Shown: positions 3,117 through 9,138, numbered from the stretch's first letter. The stretch is 64,000 bases of DNA from Candidatus Moraniibacteriota bacterium (GCA_016699425.1 CP064975.1:590098-654097); one strand, 5' to 3'. Notes: generated by a model from the sequence alone, not told the origin. Numbers and translations: made by a program.

Positions 3117-3749
3117 TTAACCCCTTTCGATATAATTACGCAATTCTTCTACCGTGTCTACGATTCCTATGAGATTGTCATGTTTTTCGCGCTCAAAAAA
3201 AGTTTTGTCATGGACTCCCCACGTAACGGCTACTGTAGGCACCCCGGCAGTGTCTGCATCTCTTACATCTCCTAGTGCATCCGTCACAAACAGAGCATCC
3301 CCCATATTGATGTCATATTTTTCACCTATTAGGTTGAACTTTTCCACCTTATCCTTCGATATCTCTGCGGTAGGGATGAAATCGAACAGCGATCTTATGC
3401 CGGCGCGTTCGAGCAGGGGCAAACAATTTCTTTCGAACGCGTTTGTATTGAGCACGAGCAGATAACCCGCGCTATGCAAAGCCTTTAGAAAGTTGTCTAT
3501 TCCTTCAAACAACGGGGCTTCTTTTTTCTTCTCAGCATACGCAAGATTGCGGCGTACCACTTCTTCCTCAGTTTCCTCTTTCTTGAGGTGCGAGTATTTT
3601 TTTATCTCTTCGTGAAAATTGCCACTATGCAATTCCTTATACATTTCGCTCGTCACACCGAGATGACCCCCTAGAAAAGTTTCCTCTGCATATGGAATAG
3701 TGTCAAACAACACCCCATCCATATCAAAGATAATCACCTTTTTTCGCAT
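3117..3749 (-). CDS. HAD-superfamily hydrolase (beta-phosphoglucomutase-like)
   Basis: N-terminal motif I FDMDGVLFDT, then motifs II-IV of HAD subfamily IA. Confidence 0.75.
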   Translation of the reverse strand: MRKKVIIFDMDGVLFDTIPYAEETFLGGHLGVTSEMYKELHSGNFHEEIKKYSHLKKEETEEEVVRRNLAYAEKKKEAPLFEGIDNFLKALHSAGYLLVLNTNAFERNCLPLLERAGIRSLFDFIPTAEISKDKVEKFNLIGEKYDINMGDALFVTDALGDVRDADTAGVPTVAVTWGVHDKTFFEREKHDNLIGIVDTVEELRNYIERG

Positions 3750-3785
3750 AGTATATAATTCACTGGCTAAACTTATGGTACGAGA

Positions 3786-4406
3786 CTAGGGCTTACATTG
3801 AGCATCCGTGTCAATGGTAATACCGGAAAGGTAGTCTGCAAACGAGGCGCAATCGCTATAAACGAAGCCTTTTATACCGAGTGCAATCGCGGCGTCTACA
3901 TTGGGTTCACTGTCATCAATAAACAACGATTCTTCTGGTTTCGACTTCGCAAGATCAAGGGCGTGTAAATATATTTCTGAATCAGGCTTGACCATCCCCA
4001 CCGCCGAAGAGATTATTACCTCTGTAAAAAGACTTTTAAATTCAGGGTACTGGGTATAGACTTTTCTTTCAAAGAAAGCGTTGTTAGCGTTAGAGAGAAG
4101 AATAGTCTTGGAACCATCCCGCTTTAACTTTTTGATTATTTCTACGAGGTCCTTATCTATTGTGAGGTAGCTGTCAATTTCTCGGCGAAGTTGTGCTTTG
4201 TCTGAAATTATATTTGGGTACTGTAAGAAGTAATCAAGCATATCATCTTCAGATAAAAAACCGAGATCAAACTGCTTGAAAGTCTCTTGTAAATTCTCAT
4301 CTATAAAATCGTACTTTGTGCTGTGCTCTCTGTACCAAGTATTGAGTACGGGACTGCATACGACACCGAAGCAGTCGAAAATAAAAGTCGTGATGCGTGT
4401 AGACAT
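3786..4406 (-). CDS. HAD-superfamily hydrolase
   Basis: FIFDCFGVV (DxxG-type motif I) near the N-terminus and DD motif near the C-terminus; paralog of the upstream HAD gene. Confidence 0.65.
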   Translation of the reverse strand: MSTRITTFIFDCFGVVCSPVLNTWYREHSTKYDFIDENLQETFKQFDLGFLSEDDMLDYFLQYPNIISDKAQLRREIDSYLTIDKDLVEIIKKLKRDGSKTILLSNANNAFFERKVYTQYPEFKSLFTEVIISSAVGMVKPDSEIYLHALDLAKSKPEESLFIDDSEPNVDAAIALGIKGFVYSDCASFADYLSGITIDTDAQCKP

Positions 4407-4410
4407 ACAT

Positions 4411-4446
4411 TACTAGGTGAGAGATCGAGCTCTCGACCGTTGGCAT
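4411..4446 (-). pseudogene. degenerate tRNA-Lys 3'-half remnant
   Basis: rc reads TGCCAACGGTCGAGAGCTCGATCTCTC, versus tRNA-Lys nt 36-66 AGCCAACGGTCGAGGGTTCGATCCCCC (13-nt identical core plus TCGATC). Confidence 0.5.
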
Positions 4447-4500
4447 ACAAGCCCGCCAGTTGGCAGGCCTACTGCCTGAGGCGGGAGCGATGAATAAATT
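4447..4500 (-). repeat. GC-rich nested hairpin element flanking the tRNA-Lys 3' end
   Basis: gcccgcc-agttggcaggcctactgcctgag-gcggg: outer cccgcc/ggcggg stem with inner ggcag/ctgcc stem. Confidence 0.4.
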
Positions 4501-4576
4501 TGGTGGGTGCGGGGGGGATCGAACCCTCGACCGTTGGCTTAAAAGGCCACTGCTCTACCGACTGAGCTACGCACCC
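4501..4576 (-). tRNA. tRNA-Lys (anticodon UUU), CCA encoded
   Basis: rc is GGGTGCGTAGCTCAGTCGGTAGAGCAGTGGCCTTTTAAGCCAACGGTCGAGGGTTCGATCCCCCCCGCACCCACCA. 7-bp acceptor stem GGGTGCG/CGCACCC, D-arm GCTC-AGTCGGTA-GAGC, anticodon loop CTTTTAA, T-loop TTCGATC. Confidence 0.85.
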
Positions 4577-4812
4577 ATGTTTAGAACATTTTTTAAGAAC
4601 TTTCTCCCAGCTGCCGATTTTAGATACTTTTCTCTTTTTCTCGCTGATAGTCTATCTGACAGCTCTTCGGAGTATACTACACGCAGTCCACTCATGAAAC
4701 GCGTGGTTTTAGTACCGCCTGCTGTATGTTCCGCAAGGCGCCTTGAAAGGTCATTTGTCATGCCTTTATAAAGCTTTCCTAGACTATCTTGGAGGACATA
4801 GACAGTATACAT
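4567..4812 (-). CDS. GIY-YIG nuclease-domain protein (YhbQ/UPF0213-like, 81 aa)
   Basis: MYTVYVLQDSLGKLYKGMTNDLSRRLAEH is the GIY-YIG signature (Y-x-Y…Y-x-G…R…E). The stop TAG lies inside the first 10 nt of tRNA-Lys (…AAC ATG GGT GCG TAG = GGGTGCGTAG). Confidence 0.7.
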   Translation of the reverse strand: MYTVYVLQDSLGKLYKGMTNDLSRRLAEHTAGGTKTTRFMSGLRVVYSEELSDRLSARKREKYLKSAAGRKFLKNVLNMGA

Positions 4813-4815
4813 ACA

Positions 4816-4900
4816 ACTTTACCGACTGAGCCCCGCCCGTACCGAACGCTAGCCCGACAGACTACTGTCATTCTGGCGGGGTACGTTCGGGTGGGTACGC
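4816..4900 (-). pseudogene. tRNA-Lys 5' remnant split by a GC-rich palindromic element
   Basis: rc reads GGGTGCGTA + 64-nt insert (CCCACCCGAACGTACC…CGTTCGGTACGGGCGGG) + GCTCAGTCGGTAAAG. This duplicates tRNA-Lys nt 1-9 and 10-21 with the insert between them. Confidence 0.55.
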
Positions 4901-4959
4901 ACCCGAACATGTTCATCCAAAACACAAGCATTGTACCAAAACCACCCCTTCGGTCAATG

Positions 4960-6288
4960 CTACGCCACTTTTTTCCGAATTATATCCGTCCCGACGAATG
5001 GCTGCAGCACTTTCGGAACGCGGACATTACCATCGACATCCTGATGATTCTCGAGGATAGCGATAAGGATACGCGGAGTCGGTAGTGCTGTGTTGTTCAG
5101 CATATAGACGAACCGCTTCTCGCCGGTCTTTGCGTCGTTGTACTTCACATTGAGCCGACGCGCCTGCCAATCGAGAAAATTCGAGGCTGAACCGGTTTCT
5201 CCGTAGCGGTTCATGCCCGGCATCCACGCCTCGAGATCGAAGGCGCGATACTTACCGGCGCTCATGTCGCCCGTGCAGATCTGAATCTTGCGATACGGGA
5301 GCCCGAGCTCTTCGTGCATCTCCTGCGATAGGCCAATCATCTCTTCCTGCAGGGCATCCGAGAGATCGATATCCGCTGGTGCGATCACGACCTGCTCGAC
5401 CTTCATGAATTCATGGACACGATACATACCTTTCGTATCCTTGCCATACGAGCCGATCTCGCTCCGATAGCACTGGCTGAACCCGGCAAGACGCAGCGGC
5501 AAGACCGCTCCATCGAGCACCTCACCACTATAATACGCGAGGAGCGACGGTTCCGCCGTCCCGACGAGGAACTTCTGTTCTTTGGAAACGCGGCCATCGC
5601 TTTCCTTGTCAGTCGAAGCGATTTCGTATACCTCATCCACCGACCCGTCATATTCGAGCCCTTTGAAATAGCCGGAACCGAAGAGCGGAAAGCCCTTTAC
5701 GAGGGTTGGCGGGATCATCGGCTGATAGCCTTTGGCCGCGAGCTTCTGAAGCGCATACATCATGAGTCCCATGACGAGGGGGACCCCTTCATTCTTCACA
5801 TAGTAGCCACGGTAACCGCCGACTTTCGCCCCACGCTCGAGATCGAGGATATCAAGGTCGCGGCCAAGCTCGATATGTGTTTTCGGCGTAAAATCAAACA
5901 CTGGCTTTTCACCGGAAACATAAACCTCCTTATTTTCGGCATCGCTTTTCCCAACCGGTGTATCCGGTGAGACGATATTTGGCACCATGGCCATCAACTT
6001 ACGAAACTCGTCCTTGGTACGACGGTAAGACACATCCTTTTCCTCAAGCCTCACTTTGATCTCTTTCCCATTGGCGATGATTTCGGCTTTCTCCGTATCG
6101 CCAGCAGCCTTCTGAATCAATTCATTAAGATCATTTTTGAGCGAACGCAGCCCCTCCACTTCCTGGATGATCGAAGTATAATCGTCATGTTTAGCCAAGA
6201 GTGCATCAAGGTCGAGCGACAAATTCTTGTTCGTGATCGCTGTACGAATGGCCGCCTCATTGTCCCGGATAAATGCGATATCAAGCAT
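4960..6288 (-). CDS. serS: seryl-tRNA synthetase
   Basis: 442 aa with N-terminal coiled-coil arm; class II motifs (…GFSQCYRSE…, TGDMSAGKYRAFDLEAW) match SerRS. Confidence 0.9.
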   Translation of the reverse strand: MLDIAFIRDNEAAIRTAITNKNLSLDLDALLAKHDDYTSIIQEVEGLRSLKNDLNELIQKAAGDTEKAEIIANGKEIKVRLEEKDVSYRRTKDEFRKLMAMVPNIVSPDTPVGKSDAENKEVYVSGEKPVFDFTPKTHIELGRDLDILDLERGAKVGGYRGYYVKNEGVPLVMGLMMYALQKLAAKGYQPMIPPTLVKGFPLFGSGYFKGLEYDGSVDEVYEIASTDKESDGRVSKEQKFLVGTAEPSLLAYYSGEVLDGAVLPLRLAGFSQCYRSEIGSYGKDTKGMYRVHEFMKVEQVVIAPADIDLSDALQEEMIGLSQEMHEELGLPYRKIQICTGDMSAGKYRAFDLEAWMPGMNRYGETGSASNFLDWQARRLNVKYNDAKTGEKRFVYMLNNTALPTPRILIAILENHQDVDGNVRVPKVLQPFVGTDIIRKKVA

Positions 6289-6293
6289 ATGGG

Positions 6294-6331
6294 TAGCCTG
6301 CTAGCTTATTAGCTTTAATCTTCGTTAGCTT
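6294..6331. repeat. four direct TAGC(T/C)T hexamers upstream of serS
   Basis: tagcct (6294), tagctt (6302), tagctt (6310), tagctt (6326), all within 40 bp of the serS start. Confidence 0.3.
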
Positions 6332-6408
6332 TCTTAGGTATAAGAGATTCTCACCTAACAGCCTTCAGTGTACCGTTTTCACAAAAAACAGGAAGGATCT
6401 CATATTAC

Positions 6409-6984
6409 TCATTTGCTTTTCTCATTCTTCAGATATTCGTTCGCTTTCAAAATAAGAACGCATGTTGGGCCATGCGTGATTGCTCCAGTCATAACCATAT
6501 TCAAAACTTCTTGAAATGGCATCTTTATTAACTCTATCTGTTCCGTACCTTCTGGTAAAGCACTTCCCCCTACAACCAGTTCTCGTGCGAGAAAAAGAGC
6601 AGAGGGACAATTAACAACCGATGTGAAGGGATCAACACTGCCCAAAGGAACCCATTCAGAAGCTGTAATGCCCAGTTCTTCTTGCAGCTCGCGTTTGGCA
6701 GCAGTGAGAACATCTTCATTCTTGTCGATACCGCCACTCACCGATTCTATACTTTCCCTGTTGATTGCAAAACGAAACTCCTTGGTCAGATATACCGTTC
6801 TGTCGGAATCCATCGGCAACACAGAAACACCCGCTATCATTTCTACAATTCCGAATATGCCATCTTTCCCATCGGGGCGTATGACCTGATGTTCAGTAAC
6901 AGCGATCCACTTGTTCTTGTACTTTTCAATACTCTCTTTGATTTTCCAGGGTCCGTGAGTTCGCATATAATCAAAGTTCTTCAT
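6409..6984 (-). CDS. NUDIX hydrolase (ADP-ribose pyrophosphatase-like)
   Basis: Nudix box GGIDKNEDVLTAAKRELQEELGI (Gx5Ex7REUxEExGU). Confidence 0.85.
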   Translation of the reverse strand: MKNFDYMRTHGPWKIKESIEKYKNKWIAVTEHQVIRPDGKDGIFGIVEMIAGVSVLPMDSDRTVYLTKEFRFAINRESIESVSGGIDKNEDVLTAAKRELQEELGITASEWVPLGSVDPFTSVVNCPSALFLARELVVGGSALPEGTEQIELIKMPFQEVLNMVMTGAITHGPTCVLILKANEYLKNEKSK

Positions 6985-6999
6985 TTTTTTGTGGTCGCT

Positions 7000-7063
7000 G
7001 GTGGATTCCCCGCCTGCCGGACGGGCAGGGAACCAGGGACCCTTGCAATGTGAATGCTGTGCT
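7000..7063 (-). pseudogene. degenerate tRNA-Val-like 3' half with a GC hairpin inserted in the T-loop
   Basis: rc reads GAGCACAGCATTCACATTGCAAGGGTCCCTGGTTCC[ctgcccgtccggcaggcgggg]AATCCACCAGCGACCAC. The first 20 nt are identical to nt 22-41 of the complete tRNA-Val at 7123-7196. Confidence 0.5.
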
Positions 7064-7099
7064 CCCCGCCCGTACCGAACGCGGTACGTTCGGGCGGGT
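7064..7099. repeat. GC-rich palindromic element (second copy of the one at 4830-4900)
   Basis: ccccgcccgtaccgaacgc-ggtacgttcgggcggg. The 19-nt left arm is identical to the copy at 4831-4849; cccgcccg/cgggcggg form an 8-bp stem with an inner taccg/cggta stem. Confidence 0.6.
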
Positions 7100-7122
7100 A
7101 ACCTTTATCCCGTCACCTTTTG

Positions 7123-7196
7123 TGGATGATACTGGATTCGAACCAGTGACCCCAGCAATGTGAATGCTGTGCTCTAACCAACTGAGCTAATCATCC
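7123..7196 (-). tRNA. tRNA-Val (anticodon CAC), CCA not encoded
   Basis: rc is GGATGATTAGCTCAGTTGGTTAGAGCACAGCATTCACATTGCTGGGGTCACTGGTTCGAATCCAGTATCATCCA. Acceptor GGATGAT/ATCATCC, D-arm, anticodon stem CAGCA/TGCTG with loop TTCACAT, T-arm ACTGG-TTCGAAT-CCAGT. Flanked by the 12-bp inverted repeat cccgtcaccttt (7103-7114) / aaaggtgacggg (7201-7212). Confidence 0.8.
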
Positions 7197-7212
7197 GCCG
7201 AAAGGTGACGGG

Positions 7213-7270
7213 ACAAGCCTGAGCCCCGCCTGCAAAGCCTGTGCGTAGCACTACGGGCAGGGATGCGACC
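7213..7270 (-). pseudogene. tRNA-like 5' remnant with GC-rich hairpin insert
   Basis: rc reads GGTCGCAT-[CCCTGCCCGTAGTGCTACGCACAGGCTTTGCAGGCGGG]-GCTCAGGCTTGT. The 5' acceptor strand GGTCGCA is complementary to GCGACC at the end of the 3' remnant at 7000-7063. Confidence 0.35.
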
Positions 7271-7286
7271 ATATACAGCTCTCAAT

Positions 7287-7547
7287 TTAGCGTGTTTCCT
7301 CAGGCTTGTCTATCGCCTTTTCTCCCCAAAACCACTTGTAGATCCCATAGACCCAAATCGCCGAATAAACGATAGAGTTCAGGAAGATCCCCCACTGGTC
7401 ATGCGTGTAAGCCGTGAAAAACCAGAACGGCTGAGCGAGCAGACCCAGCACAAACCCCCATTTATTCTTCCGGGCGACGAGAAACATCGCCGAGAATCCG
7501 AAGATGGGTATACCAACCTGAGCGATCACATCGGCATTGATACTCAT
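7287..7547 (-). CDS. small Trp-rich membrane protein (PnuC-like fragment?)
   Basis: 86 aa, two or three predicted TM helices, W-rich (…KNKWGFVLGLLAQPFWFFTAYTHDQWGIFLN…). Confidence 0.4.
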   Translation of the reverse strand: MSINADVIAQVGIPIFGFSAMFLVARKNKWGFVLGLLAQPFWFFTAYTHDQWGIFLNSIVYSAIWVYGIYKWFWGEKAIDKPEETR

Positions 7548-7605
7548 AGAGCTACTCCTTCGTCTTCATCTCAGCACCAAAATATAAGACTGCACCCTGA
7601 ATTTC

Positions 7606-9138
7606 TTATCTCGTTCCTGCCTGGGACAACGGGTCATCTGTCGTCTTTCCCGATTGCTTTGGTGCGGGACGAGTCGGTGGAAAGATGACCGTCTCGCGTA
7701 TGCCCTTGTCCATGAGGACGGCAAAGAGCCGTTCACTCATGCCAAACCCAAACGCCGGTGGCATCCCGTACTCGAGCGCCTGGAGGAAATCCTCATCGAG
7801 CATCTGTGCCTCGGCATCCCCGGCCTCACGGAGCTTCATCTGCGCTTCGAAACGCGCGCGCTGGTCAATCGGGTCGTTCAATTCAGCGAAGCCGTTGCCG
7901 AGCTCACTGCGTCCCGCGATCGGCTGCATCCGGAGCGTTCTCTTTGAATTTTTCGGATCGAGTTTAGCCAAGGGCGACACCTCGACCGGATGACCGACCA
8001 GGATGCAGGGCTGGATCAATTTCTGTCGTACGGTTTTCTTGTAAATCGTATCGATGAGCCGACCCTTACCGGCTGCTGATTCATACTTGATGCCGAGCTC
8101 GTCTGCCTTGGCACGCAGCATCTCGACCGTCACTTCGCTCGAAAGATCAATACCGGTCTCAGTCTTGAAGGCTTCGAAGTAATCAATCCGCGGGAACGGC
8201 TTCGACCAATCGAGTGTCTCGCCCTCATGCGTTGTCGTGAGACTATCGCCCGCCACCGCCCGGACGATTTCACGGTACAGTTCCTCTACCATGGCACAGC
8301 CCGCCTCAAAATCAGTATAGGCGCTGTAGAACTCGATATGATCGAATTCCTGAAGATGTTCACGATCAATGCCCTCGTTCCGGAATACGCGACCGATTTC
8401 AAACACGCGTTCATAGCCGCCGACGAGGAGCCGCTTCAGTGGCAGTTCAAGCGAGATGCGCAGATAGAAATCCTGATCCAGTGCATGGTGATGCGTGACA
8501 AATGGCTCTGCCTCAGCCCCGCCTGGTACATGCTCCAAAACCGGTGTCTGTACCTCGAGAAAACCACGGGTCGCGAGAAAGGTGCGGACTGTCTGCCAAA
8601 ATGTGTTCTTCTTCACAAACAACTCTCGCGTCTCAGGATTCATCACCAGGTCAAGATAGCGTTGCCGGAGCAGCGCCTCTTCATCTTTCAGTCCGTAGAA
8701 CTCCGTCGGAAGCGGGAGGAGCGACTTCGACAACATCTGCCAACTTTCGACCCGGACGCTCTTCTCATTCTGTTTCGTCAGAAACACCGTACCAGTCATC
8801 GAAATGAAGTCACCCAGCTCGACCGTTTCTTTAAAAAGAGCAAACTTACTATTGTCTTGTGGTGCGTCAACTGGAGCAAGTAATTCCTGTGAAAAGAATC
8901 CTTGAATTTTTCCACTCCCATCTTCGATGTGACAGAACGCGATCTTGCCCATAGTCCGAAGCGAGCGCACCCGACCGACCACCGAGACCTGCGTGGCCGT
9001 GCCGTTCAGCTCATCAAAACGATCAAGGACCGCCTGGTTCGTATCTGTCCGACGGGCTTTTTCCGGATACGCCGAACCGAGCGCGGTGACGATCTTCGCG
9101 AGTTTTTCATGTTTTGCGGTGAGAATATCTTCGCGCAT
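7606..9138 (-). CDS. lysS: lysyl-tRNA synthetase, class II
   Basis: 510 aa with N-terminal OB anticodon-binding domain; class II motifs (FRNEGIDREHLQEFDHIEFY, motif 3 GFGMSERLFAVL). Confidence 0.9.
   Translation of the reverse strand: MREDILTAKHEKLAKIVTALGSAYPEKARRTDTNQAVLDRFDELNGTATQVSVVGRVRSLRTMGKIAFCHIEDGSGKIQGFFSQELLAPVDAPQDNSKFALFKETVELGDFISMTGTVFLTKQNEKSVRVESWQMLSKSLLPLPTEFYGLKDEEALLRQRYLDLVMNPETRELFVKKNTFWQTVRTFLATRGFLEVQTPVLEHVPGGAEAEPFVTHHHALDQDFYLRISLELPLKRLLVGGYERVFEIGRVFRNEGIDREHLQEFDHIEFYSAYTDFEAGCAMVEELYREIVRAVAGDSLTTTHEGETLDWSKPFPRIDYFEAFKTETGIDLSSEVTVEMLRAKADELGIKYESAAGKGRLIDTIYKKTVRQKLIQPCILVGHPVEVSPLAKLDPKNSKRTLRMQPIAGRSELGNGFAELNDPIDQRARFEAQMKLREAGDAEAQMLDEDFLQALEYGMPPAFGFGMSERLFAVLMDKGIRETVIFPPTRPAPKQSGKTTDDPLSQAGTR

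What the first reader, a model, noticed from the sequence alone, without database searches (positions are those of the whole stretch)
4830..4900. Family of small GC-rich palindromic elements inserted into tRNA-like sequences
Two element types recur. Type 1 has a 19-nt left arm ccccgcccgtaccgaacgc and right arm ggtacgttcggg(c/t)ggg. The 4830-4900 copy carries an extra 30-nt internal segment; the 7064-7099 copy is the minimal version. Type 2 is ccccgcctgc…gggcaggg (rc ccctgcccgt…gcaggcgggg) with a variable interior, at 7021-7044 and 7227-7263. All four copies interrupt tRNA-derived sequence at the nt 9/10 junction or in the T-loop, and they are far more GC-rich than their surroundings. They behave like MITE-like or REP-like elements with a tRNA-structure target preference.
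Basis: seen in the sequence. Interest (0 to 1): 0.55.

Follow-up and report, generated by a model that had tools for sequence, protein, structure and literature searches.

The report
Mobile GC hairpins in dead tRNA copies
The small GC-rich palindromes are real members of an apparently undescribed family of 21-65-bp hairpin insertions, found with the same sequence in very distant bacterial phyla, that sit precisely at loop junctions of disabled tRNA gene copies next to a tiny nuclease gene and a working tRNA.

Summary
A fifth element lies at 4452-4485. All five lie in dead tRNA fragments flanking the two live tRNAs, Lys 4501-4576 and Val 7122-7196.

They are not a local curiosity. The T1 arms occur in more than 120 stretches from Patescibacteria, Bacteroidota (including cultured isolates), Planctomycetota and Bdellovibrionales, and in no viral, phage or plasmid collection searched.

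Two filled/empty comparisons show precise insertion without target duplication. Preferred sites are stem-loop junctions of the tRNA cloverleaf (A21^G22, A9^G10, 13/14, C56^G57), in either orientation. Elements also nest inside each other's loops.

In 80 loci chosen only by an 80-aa GIY-YIG (UPF0213/SLX1-like) ORF, 69 have a tRNA starting at the ORF end. Of the 76 with enough upstream sequence, 68 carry such a hairpin in a displaced 5' tRNA fragment about 20 nt before the start codon.

The family shares a covarying double-bulged architecture. Hairpin subfamily does not track GIY lineage.

Best reading: trans-mobilised miniature palindromic elements that target tRNA-gene structure and persist only in redundant copies. 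The enzyme is unknown. No description was found in the open-access and bioRxiv library searched.

The parts
4832..4895 (.). T1-long hairpin element, inserted between A9 and G10 of a displaced tRNA-Lys 5' fragment
   Evidence: folds at -34 kcal/mol, z -3.7 to -4.2; identical in strain L201
4849..4879 (.). Nested inner element (N1, CTAGCCCGACA..GTCATTCTGGCGG) in the loop of T1-long
   Evidence: The same interior recurs in T1, V2 and V3 hairpins from other phyla
4896..4904 (-). Displaced tRNA-Lys fragment, positions 1-9 (GGGTGCGTA)
   Evidence: Exact match to live tRNA-Lys 1-9
4820..4831 (-). Displaced tRNA-Lys fragment, positions 10-21 (GCTCAGTCGGTA), followed by AAGTTGT and the ORF start
4930..4957 (-). 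Sigma-70-like promoter (TTGACC-16-TG-TACAAT) upstream of the displaced fragment
   Evidence: 10/12 match; consensus match only
4567..4812 (-). 81-aa GIY-YIG (UPF0213/SLX1-like) ORF; its stop codon TAG is tRNA-Lys positions 8-10
   Evidence: Pfam PF01541, E 8e-12; catalytic Y5, Y15, R25, H29 invariant and E61 in at least 90% of the 24 sequences; PDB relatives 1ywl, 1zg2 and SLX1
4501..4576 (-). Live tRNA-Lys(UUU)
   Evidence: ARAGORN; Rfam 67 bits
4452..4485 (.). T3 hairpin (CCCGCC..GGCGGG), 15 nt downstream of tRNA-Lys, at position ~31/32 of a dead 3' tRNA-Lys-like fragment
   Evidence: -20 to -21 kcal/mol; absent in strain L201, which diverges right after CCA
4420..4451 (-). Dead 3' tRNA-Lys-like fragment (anticodon loop to T arm)
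   Evidence: Reading against tRNA-Lys
6992..7270 (-). Dead outer tRNA-Val' split by three hairpins and by the nested live tRNA-Val
   Evidence: in the syntenic locus L057 it is a perfect cloverleaf once the inserts are removed
7009..7029 (.). T2 hairpin, 21 nt, inserted between C56 and G57 of the outer tRNA-Val' T loop
   Evidence: Filled site in the window, empty site in L057, no target duplication
7065..7098 (.). T1-min hairpin inserted between A21 and G22 of outer tRNA-Val'
   Evidence: two near-isoenergetic folds (MFE frequency 0.44-0.49)
7122..7196 (-). Live tRNA-Val(CAC), nested in the D loop of the outer copy
7107..7120 (.). Inverted-repeat arm (trailer side) flanking the nested tRNA-Val
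   Evidence: pairs with 7201-7214; conserved in L057
7201..7214 (.). Inverted-repeat arm (leader side; motif CCCGTCAC on the tRNA strand)
   Evidence: the same design occurs in L039, L080, L117
7225..7262 (.). T2-long hairpin at position 8/9-9/10 of outer tRNA-Val'
   Evidence: shared with L057; a related element occurs in L080
7284..7312 (-). Promoter-like site upstream of outer tRNA-Val'
   Evidence: 9/12; consensus match only

Best explanation
The hairpins are small non-coding palindromic mobile DNA elements, 21-65 bp long, with termini CC(C/T)(G/T)CCCG...CGGG(C/A)(G/A)GG. They are copied precisely, without target duplication and in either orientation, into single-strand/double-strand junctions of DNA that can fold like a tRNA or a hairpin. 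Hot spots are the ends of the D stem (9/10, 13/14, 21/22) and the T loop (56/57); they also insert into each other's loops. They survive only in tRNA gene copies that have become redundant. Those copies arise when a cassette carrying a small GIY-YIG nuclease ORF and/or a replacement tRNA invades a tRNA gene, displacing part of the old copy and leaving a live tRNA beside it. In the window, both live tRNAs are apparently transcribed from the old promoter through a hairpin-bearing leader. Shown: family membership, cross-phylum spread, precise insertion, site preference, random orientation, nesting, the shared double-bulge architecture, and the near-obligatory association with GIY-tRNA cassettes. 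Inferred: (i) the substrate is folded single-stranded or cruciform DNA; (ii) the SLX1-like GIY-YIG nuclease supplies the structure-specific cut in trans (my estimate about 0.3); (iii) hairpins are retained because they lock the displaced fragment as dead, by breaking its homology with the live copy, its folding, or its cleavability.
For: The two-arm T1 pattern occurs in more than 120 stretches across phyla, and its arms almost never occur unpaired (132 paired, 4 unpaired). The hairpin sits inside partial duplicates of the adjacent intact tRNA. Junction sites cluster: 21/22 in 17 unique contexts of the first set and 32 of the second, 9/10 to 10/11 in 6 and 12, 13/14 in 0 and 5, and T loop 56/57 in 5 of the first set. 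Orientation is mixed, 20:11. Filled/empty pairs without target duplication: T2 in window versus L057, and a 28-nt hairpin inside the anticodon of a dead tRNA-Thr in L134 versus L163, which also carry different subfamilies at the same 21/22 site. Nesting is seen. Of 115 distinct elements, 66% have both alternative bulged helices versus 0.09% of shuffles, none is a plain hairpin, and the modules covary. In the sample chosen by the GIY protein alone, 69/80 loci have a tRNA at the ORF end and 68/76 have a hairpin upstream. GIY similarity does not predict hairpin subfamily (p 0.6). The GIY profile matches the SLX1 structure-specific endonuclease.
Against: No enzyme has been shown to move them, and no transposase-like gene was noticed near them. 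GIY-YIG nucleases only hydrolyse DNA, so insertion would need host repair or ligation. Many copies lie far from any GIY ORF. The near-constant hairpin-to-ATG distance (median 20 nt, whatever the tRNA site) suggests a coupling that independent insertion explains only through selection. The high occupancy of fragments would imply a heavy load on live tRNA genes unless insertion is targeted or coupled. Identical arms across phyla, with no phage or plasmid vector found, remain unexplained. The 120 pattern-selected loci are biased toward T1. The empty-site evidence rests on two pairs.
Confidence: 0.5

Rival explanations
1. The hairpin is a cis-acting functional part of the GIY-YIG cassette. It could be a protective or processing hairpin at the 5' end of the nuclease mRNA. 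It could instead be the nuclease's docking or cleavage site, or an 'immunity' insertion that destroys the nuclease target in the displaced fragment. On this view it travels with the cassette by homing.
For: 68/76 GIY loci carry one. The distance to the ATG is tight (median 20, IQR 17-26) whichever tRNA site holds the hairpin, and the fragment always ends about 10-17 nt after it. Promoter-like sites lie upstream of the fragments. Hairpins also lie 8-15 nt after the live tRNA (window T3; L163/L134). I-TevI-type GIY-YIG enzymes cut at a fixed distance from the insertion site (established knowledge).
Against: Subfamily and orientation are unrelated to GIY lineage: p 0.6, and the closest GIY pair at the same tRNA carries T1 versus V2. 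Orientation is about 58:42 (my count). Many hairpins have no GIY ORF within 8 kb. Hairpins occur in T loops, anticodons, other hairpins and microsatellite arrays. The sequence between hairpin and ATG matches the local tRNA rather than a conserved cassette end (window versus L077).
Confidence: 0.25
2. The hairpins are recombination sites, analogous to integron attC sites, through which tRNA/GIY cassettes are stacked at tRNA loci by a site-specific recombinase acting on folded single strands.
For: They are imperfect palindromes with conserved ends, a variable centre and obligatory bulges. tRNA copies are layered at these loci. Loci differ immediately beyond hairpin-bearing junctions.
Against: No integrase or recombinase gene was noticed in the loci, though they were not systematically screened for one. 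Solo hairpins interrupt otherwise continuous tRNA sequence with identical flanks on both sides, which indicates insertion rather than a cassette boundary. No conserved crossover core was seen outside the element.
Confidence: 0.1
3. They are introns removed from the RNA, so the interrupted tRNAs are functional, like archaeal multi-intron or split tRNAs.
For: The positions are loop junctions. In L057 the outer tRNA-Val' is a perfect cloverleaf after in-silico removal. Three complete interrupted tRNAs have no backup within the sequence held.
Against: These are bacterial genomes. Hairpins occur in both orientations at the same site. Most interrupted copies are truncated. An intact same-anticodon tRNA lies beside them, and the three exceptions are at contig ends. 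The window's outer tRNA-Val' has decayed stems. I saw no bulge-helix-bulge geometry when reading the junctions (not formally tested). Hairpins also occur outside tRNAs. No Rfam family matches.
Confidence: 0.03
4. Chance palindromes, a single local duplication, or an assembly artefact.
For: The window has only two T1 and two T2 copies, all within 2.5 kb.
Against: More than 120 stretches against about 0.13 expected. T1 is present in cultured isolates: Luteirhabdus pelagi, Chryseolinea serpens, Thermobacterium salinum. An independent assembly, L201, is identical through the element.
Confidence: 0.01

Closest known systems
REP/REPIN elements mobilised by RAYT (TnpA-REP) and IS200/IS605-derived PATEs
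   Same: Short non-coding GC-rich imperfect hairpins; no terminal inverted repeat plus duplication signature; probably act as folded single strands; dispersed in many copies.
   Different: REPs are species-specific, carry a conserved GTAG flank and co-occur with a RAYT gene. Here the arms are identical across phyla, no Y1/HUH transposase gene was noticed, no conserved flanking tetranucleotide is present, and the target is a structural position in tRNA-like DNA.
GC clusters and double-hairpin elements of fungal mitochondrial genomes (e.g. PMC4478555)
   Same: Small GC-rich palindromes that are mobile, can land inside structural RNA genes, nest, and have no known enzyme.
   Different: Those are organellar and lineage-restricted with a different sequence. 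They have no tRNA-junction specificity and no link to a GIY-YIG/tRNA cassette.
Free-standing GIY-YIG homing endonucleases in tRNA clusters (phage T4 SegB; PMC2330249, PMC13096335)
   Same: A GIY-YIG nuclease gene embedded among tRNA genes. SegB cuts within the T4 tRNA gene region (the exact site is my recollection, not read here), drives local gene conversion and promotes segmental amplification.
   Different: SegB is a larger phage protein with a DNA-binding part (my knowledge, not tested here). The window ORF is an 80-aa chromosomal catalytic core related to UPF0213/SLX1, abuts tRNA position +1, and comes with a hairpin-bearing displaced tRNA fragment.
tRNA-targeting integrative elements that restore the tRNA they interrupt
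   Same: Invasion of a tRNA gene with duplication of part of it, leaving a live copy and a remnant; islands lie next to the tRNA.
   Different: No integrase gene was noticed. The duplicated part is the 5' portion starting exactly at +1. The cargo is about 250 bp. The remnants carry hairpin insertions.
Integron attC sites
   Same: Imperfect palindromes with conserved ends, a variable centre and obligatory extrahelical bulges, recognised as folded single strands.
   Different: No integron integrase and no GTTRRRY core. The elements interrupt continuous sequence instead of bounding cassettes.
Archaeal non-canonical tRNA introns and split tRNAs
   Same: Multiple short insertions at non-canonical tRNA positions; GC-rich helices; tRNA nested within tRNA.
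   Different: Bacterial hosts; both orientations; dead copies with a live backup; I saw no bulge-helix-bulge motif when reading the junctions.

Membership tests
MITE | Target-site duplication flanking the element | tested here: not met
   Filled/empty pairs show insertion of exactly 21 nt and 28 nt with no duplicated flank; junctions in 35 tRNA contexts are clean
MITE | Derivation from an autonomous transposon with the same terminal inverted repeats | tested here: not met
   The arms almost never occur unpaired or spaced around an ORF (132 paired, 4 unpaired)
REP/REPIN-RAYT | Conserved flanking GTAG/CTAC tetranucleotide and species-specific sequence | tested here: not met
   Flanks are variable; identical arms occur in several phyla
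REP/REPIN-RAYT | Cognate RAYT/TnpA gene in the genome | not testable with these tools
   Only 8-kb loci were available and whole genomes were not searched; the loci themselves were screened only for GIY ORFs and tRNAs
IS200/IS605-type single-strand insertion (PATE) | Insertion 3' of a fixed 4-5-nt target, in one orientation relative to replication | tested here: inconclusive
   Sites share T(A/C)^G at three hot spots, but other sites differ (G^T, A^T); replication direction is unknown
Archaeal-type tRNA intron | Fixed orientation with a bulge-helix-bulge at the exon-intron junctions, yielding a functional tRNA | tested here: not met
   Both orientations occur at the same site; interrupted copies are truncated or decayed and have live backups. 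Bulge-helix-bulge geometry was judged by eye only
Group I intron in tRNA | Group I ribozyme core of about 200 nt or more in the anticodon loop | tested here: not met
   Elements are 21-65 nt; no Rfam hit at E<10
Integron attC | R''/L''...L'/R' boxes with a GTTRRRY core, next to an intI integron | tested here: not met
   Termini are CCCGCCCG/CGGGCGGG; no integrase gene was noticed in the loci, which were not systematically screened for one
Intrinsic terminator | GC hairpin followed by a T run | tested here: not met
   The terminator scan finds none at the elements, and I saw no T run after them in the sequence
GIY-YIG superfamily, UPF0213/SLX1-like branch (the ORF, not the hairpin) | GIY...YIG motifs with catalytic Arg, His/Tyr and Glu | tested here: met
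   PF01541, E 8e-12; Y5, Y15, R25, H29 invariant and E61 in at least 90% of 24 sequences; profile hits 1ywl, 1zg2 and SLX1
Homing endonuclease (the ORF) | Demonstrated site-specific cleavage of the ORF-less allele and gene conversion | not testable with these tools
   Indirect only: the same ORF family sits at more than 10 different tRNA species

The most novel reading that the evidence does not exclude
The hairpins, the 80-aa SLX1-like GIY-YIG nuclease and the adjacent live tRNA form one selfish system, a natural 'cleave-and-rescue' drive at tRNA genes. The structure-specific nuclease cuts stem-loop junctions of the folded resident tRNA gene. A stable hairpin is fixed at the cut, permanently disabling that copy. 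The cassette supplies the replacement tRNA, so the host cannot lose it. Repeated rounds give the layered tRNA graveyards. This would be a new, nuclease-driven mode of miniature-element insertion, and a mechanism for cross-phylum spread through the universally conserved D and T arms.
Probability: 0.2. Interest if true: 0.92.

Novelty: new variant of a known kind. Interest (0 to 1): 0.8.

Why it matters
Miniature palindromic elements are usually treated as lineage-specific debris. This family keeps identical 34-nt arms from Patescibacteria to Bacteroidota, Planctomycetota and Bdellovibrionales. It picks structural positions of tRNA genes. It marks almost every tRNA remnant left by a very common but uncharacterised tiny GIY-YIG ORF.

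Four consequences follow.
- It explains why tRNA loci of small-genome bacteria are littered with pseudo-tRNA fragments.
- It provides a cheap annotation rule: a hairpin inside a tRNA fragment next to a GIY ORF indicates a dead copy, not an intron.
- It gives the UPF0213 family its first concrete genomic context.
- It offers a tractable system for structure-directed DNA insertion and for selfish replacement of essential RNA genes, because cultured isolates such as Chryseolinea serpens DSM 24574 and Luteirhabdus pelagi carry T1.

Tried and rejected
- Rfam, at gathering thresholds and at E<10 over 4380-7320: only the two tRNAs and chance hits; no family for the hairpins.
- Generic GC-hairpin enrichment in the window: none.
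- ORF cargo between T1 arms: rejected, since the arms are always 1-31 nt apart.
- Phage or plasmid vector: no hits in viral contigs, phage or plasmid collections.
- In-situ target duplication that includes the upstream flank: rejected, since duplication starts at tRNA +1 and the upstream flanks are unrelated.
- Hybrid-tRNA model (cassette brings only positions 1-S): rejected for L141, L163 and similar loci. There the live tRNA's 5' and 3' acceptor strands match each other but not the fragment.
- Co-evolution of hairpin subfamily with GIY lineage: none.
- The hairpin exactly bisects the direct repeat: only weakly. The longest shared tract falls from 30 to 22 nt, but the split is asymmetric at about 21+9.
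- Flanks of non-tRNA copies pairing directly across the element: a weak effect (flank folding -10.7 versus -9.0 kcal/mol, p 0.0009; adjacent stems of 5 bp or more in 8% versus 3%).
- Literature: nine searches (sequence string; GIY-YIG with tRNA, CPR, palindromes; YhbQ) found no description.
- Exact-protein look-up of the window GIY: a single 611-nt contig.

Full report
**1. What is in the window**

The window is bacterial, about 53% GC, with low-GC islands. It holds only two tRNA genes, both on the minus strand: Lys(UUU) at 4501-4576 and Val(CAC) at 7122-7196.

Read on the minus strand, the Lys locus runs in this order:
- a promoter-like site, 4957->4930;
- GGGTGCGTA, which is tRNA-Lys positions 1-9;
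- T1-long, 4895->4832;
- GCTCAGTCGGTA, which is positions 10-21;
- the linker AAGTTGT;
- an 81-aa GIY-YIG ORF, 4812->4567, whose stop codon TAG is tRNA positions 8-10;
- the live tRNA-Lys;
- 15 nt of spacer;
- a fifth hairpin, T3, 4485->4452;
- a decayed 3' tRNA-Lys-like fragment.

The Val locus is a 'tRNA inside a tRNA'. The dead outer tRNA-Val' spans 7270->6992. It carries T2-long at 8/9-9/10 and T1-min at 21/22. The live tRNA-Val sits in its D loop, flanked by a 14-bp inverted repeat. T2 sits in its T loop.

One coordinate was about 12 nt off, and T1-min is at 21/22 rather than at 9/10 or in the T loop. Generic GC hairpins are not enriched in the window. The T1 arm occurs twice against 0.18 expected.

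**2. The elements are not local**

I searched for the two-arm T1 pattern CCGTACCGAACG-N(1-31)-GGTACGTTCGGG. Its chance expectation in the 596-Gb genome collection is about 0.13 (my calculation).

The hits come from these groups:
- Patescibacteria: Peribacteria/Peregrinibacteria, Saccharibacteria, Moranbacteria, Vogelbacteria, Doudnabacteria, Paceibacteria, Absconditabacterales;
- Bacteroidota, including the cultured Luteirhabdus pelagi, Chryseolinea serpens and Thermobacterium salinum;
- Planctomycetota, Bdellovibrionales and one Gammaproteobacteria MAG.

The pattern has no hits in viral contigs, phage records or plasmids. No Rfam family matches, and nine literature searches found nothing. The two arms are practically always paired at short distance: 132 paired against 4 unpaired. 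There is therefore no ORF-carrying master copy.

**3. Context elsewhere**

About 55 of 128 copies lie within 400 nt of an ARAGORN-called tRNA, and 27 loci hold a homologue of the window's GIY ORF.

In those loci the hairpin sits inside a partial or degenerate duplicate of the neighbouring intact tRNA, for example frag[1-22]-hairpin-frag[23-40]. The junctions are clean.

Sites cluster at the ends of the D stem and in the T loop. A21^G22 is by far the commonest, followed by A9^G10, 13/14 and C56^G57. Single cases occur at 7/8, 17, 31/32, 35/36 and 44/45. These positions are stem-loop junctions of the cloverleaf. Orientation relative to the tRNA is mixed, 20:11.

Other copies sit in the loop of larger hairpins (Peribacteria), in tandem pairs inside a larger repeat (Chryseolinea), or in heptamer arrays (Luteirhabdus).

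Hairpins also nest. A T2-like element lies in a T1 loop in L003 and L036. The 31-nt interior of the window's T1-long is a recurrent inner element that is also found in the V2 and V3 subfamilies.

**4. Evidence for insertion**

L057, a Moraniibacteriota MAG, is syntenic with the window. It is about 83% identical over LysRS, and SerRS follows the tRNA-Val locus. It shares T1-min, T2-long and the nested tRNA, but its T loop is uninterrupted. The window has exactly 21 extra nt between C56 and G57, with no duplication.

The outer tRNA-Val' of L057 is a perfect cloverleaf once the inserts are removed. It differs from the inner tRNA by compensatory changes in three stems, so the live copy is a different allele and not a local duplicate. 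In the window the outer copy has since decayed.

The second pair is L134 and L163, which share the same dead tRNA-Thr copy. L134 has an extra 28-nt hairpin inside the anticodon. The two loci also carry different hairpin subfamilies at the identical 21/22 site. Hairpins therefore turn over faster than their flanks diverge.

**5. A sample not selected by the hairpin**

A profile of 24 GIY proteins retrieved 80 metagenome loci.
- In 69 of the 80, a tRNA starts within -40 to +60 nt of the ORF end on the same strand. At least ten amino-acid specificities are represented.
- Of the 76 loci with at least 100 nt upstream, 54 carry a hairpin by strict pattern. Another 14 carry one with variant termini, identified by eye. 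That gives 68 of 76.
- The hairpin lies in a 5' tRNA fragment and ends a median of 20 nt (IQR 17-26) before the ATG.
- The duplication begins exactly at tRNA +1, and the upstream flanks are unrelated.
- Fragment and live tRNA are often different alleles. Further dead copies with hairpins follow the live tRNA.

**6. Architecture**

All subfamilies share the form 5'-O-m1-m2-loop-m1'-m2'-O'-3', where O is CCCGCCCG or CCTGCCCG. The inner modules are in 'swapped' order. A continuous hairpin therefore never forms (0 of 115 elements). Instead, two alternative bulged hairpins are possible. Both helices of at least 4 bp are present in 66% of elements, against 0.09% of shuffles.

The modules covary between subfamilies:
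- AACG/CGTT with ATCC/GGAT;
- TACC/GGTA with ACTGA/TCAGT and ACCGA/TCGGT.

T1-min folds at -23 kcal/mol, with the best structure holding only 44-49% of the ensemble. The design is symmetric under reverse complement, which fits the mixed orientation.

**7. The ORF**

The ORF is a bare GIY-YIG catalytic core with the catalytic residues conserved. Its closest solved relatives are UPF0213 proteins and the structure-specific endonuclease SLX1. It has no NCBIfam name.

GIY sequence similarity does not predict hairpin subfamily (difference 0.00, p 0.6). The closest GIY pair at the same tRNA carries T1 in one locus and V2 in the other.

The window's GIY (at tRNA-Lys) and L077's (at tRNA-Asp) are 77% identical. 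Both have a T1 at 9/10 and the same ORF junction, GGTA|AAGnnGT-ATG. The intervening 12 nt match the local tRNA in each case.

**8. Interpretation**

Shown:
- a cross-phylum family of precise, duplication-free insertions in either orientation;
- a preference for tRNA stem-loop junctions, with nesting;
- a conserved double-bulge design;
- near-obligatory presence in the tRNA remnants produced by GIY/tRNA cassettes.

Inferred:
- the elements are moved in trans on folded single-stranded or cruciform DNA;
- the SLX1-like nuclease is the best candidate for the cut, at about 0.3;
- they persist because they lock the displaced copy as dead.

The intron reading is very unlikely. Hairpins occur in both orientations, the interrupted copies are truncated or decayed, and a live backup lies beside them. 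The three exceptions are at contig ends.

The cis-element reading is the main rival. It is favoured by the constant distance to the ATG. It is disfavoured by the lack of co-inheritance with GIY and by the many GIY-free copies.

**9. Unexplained**

- the constant hairpin-to-ATG spacing;
- how live tRNAs escape insertion;
- how identical arms are maintained across phyla without a known vector;
- the inserting enzyme.

**10. Verdict**

The MITE/REP label is only an analogy, because the defining features of both families fail. The family and its association with the GIY-YIG/tRNA cassette appear to be undescribed in the library I could search.

Noticed in passing
window 4567-4812 (-) and 4501-4576 (-): The GIY-YIG ORF reads into the tRNA and stops at the conserved T8-A9-G10. 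RNase P cleavage at +1 would leave a non-stop mRNA, which could act as a built-in brake on nuclease expression. Many homologues do the same.
   Followed up: partly
window 3117-4485: A low-GC island with two HAD-hydrolase ORFs (3117-3749, 3786-4406), plus T3 and a 3' tRNA-like fragment, starts right after the CCA end of tRNA-Lys. The near-identical strain contig L201 diverges exactly there.
   Followed up: partly
window 6409-6984 and 7300-7674: A NUDIX ORF and an 86-aa PnuC-like fragment ORF (7287-7547) flank the tRNA-Val graveyard. Both are absent from the syntenic locus L057, where SerRS directly follows the outer tRNA.
   Followed up: partly
window 7107-7120 / 7201-7214; L057, L039, L065, L080, L099, L117: A whole live tRNA gene is flanked by a 14-18-bp leader/trailer inverted repeat with the motif CCC(C)GTCAC. 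It is nested in the D loop or anticodon loop of a dead tRNA of the same specificity, in Patescibacteria and Bdellovibrionales. This appears to be a second kind of tRNA-invading cassette, without an ORF.
   Followed up: partly
L050 6213-6604: Four tandem 122-bp units, each made of tRNA-Thr[1-31] plus a T1 hairpin, lie upstream of the live tRNA-Thr and a GIY ORF. This resembles the segmental amplification reported for the phage T4 nuclease SegB (PMC13096335).
   Followed up: no
L001, L043, L046, L097, L103 (Luteirhabdus pelagi isolate): T1 hairpins with variable interiors are embedded in arrays of 7-8-nt tandem repeats (GGTGTTG, GAGAAGT, AGTAGGAGGT), with no tRNA or GIY ORF within 8 kb.
   Followed up: no
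L020, L063, L067, L102 (Chryseolinea, Maribellus): Two hairpins abut head to tail inside a longer repeated unit (..GGCGGCCCCCTCG..[HP][HP]CTATCCGTTCCAAGTCC..) that is present many times per genome. The hairpin has been recruited into a larger repeat family.
   Followed up: no
window 4930-4957 (-) and 7284-7312 (-): Promoter-like sites sit just upstream of the displaced 5' fragments. The live tRNAs and the GIY ORF are therefore probably transcribed from the old tRNA promoter through the hairpin-bearing leader.
   Followed up: no
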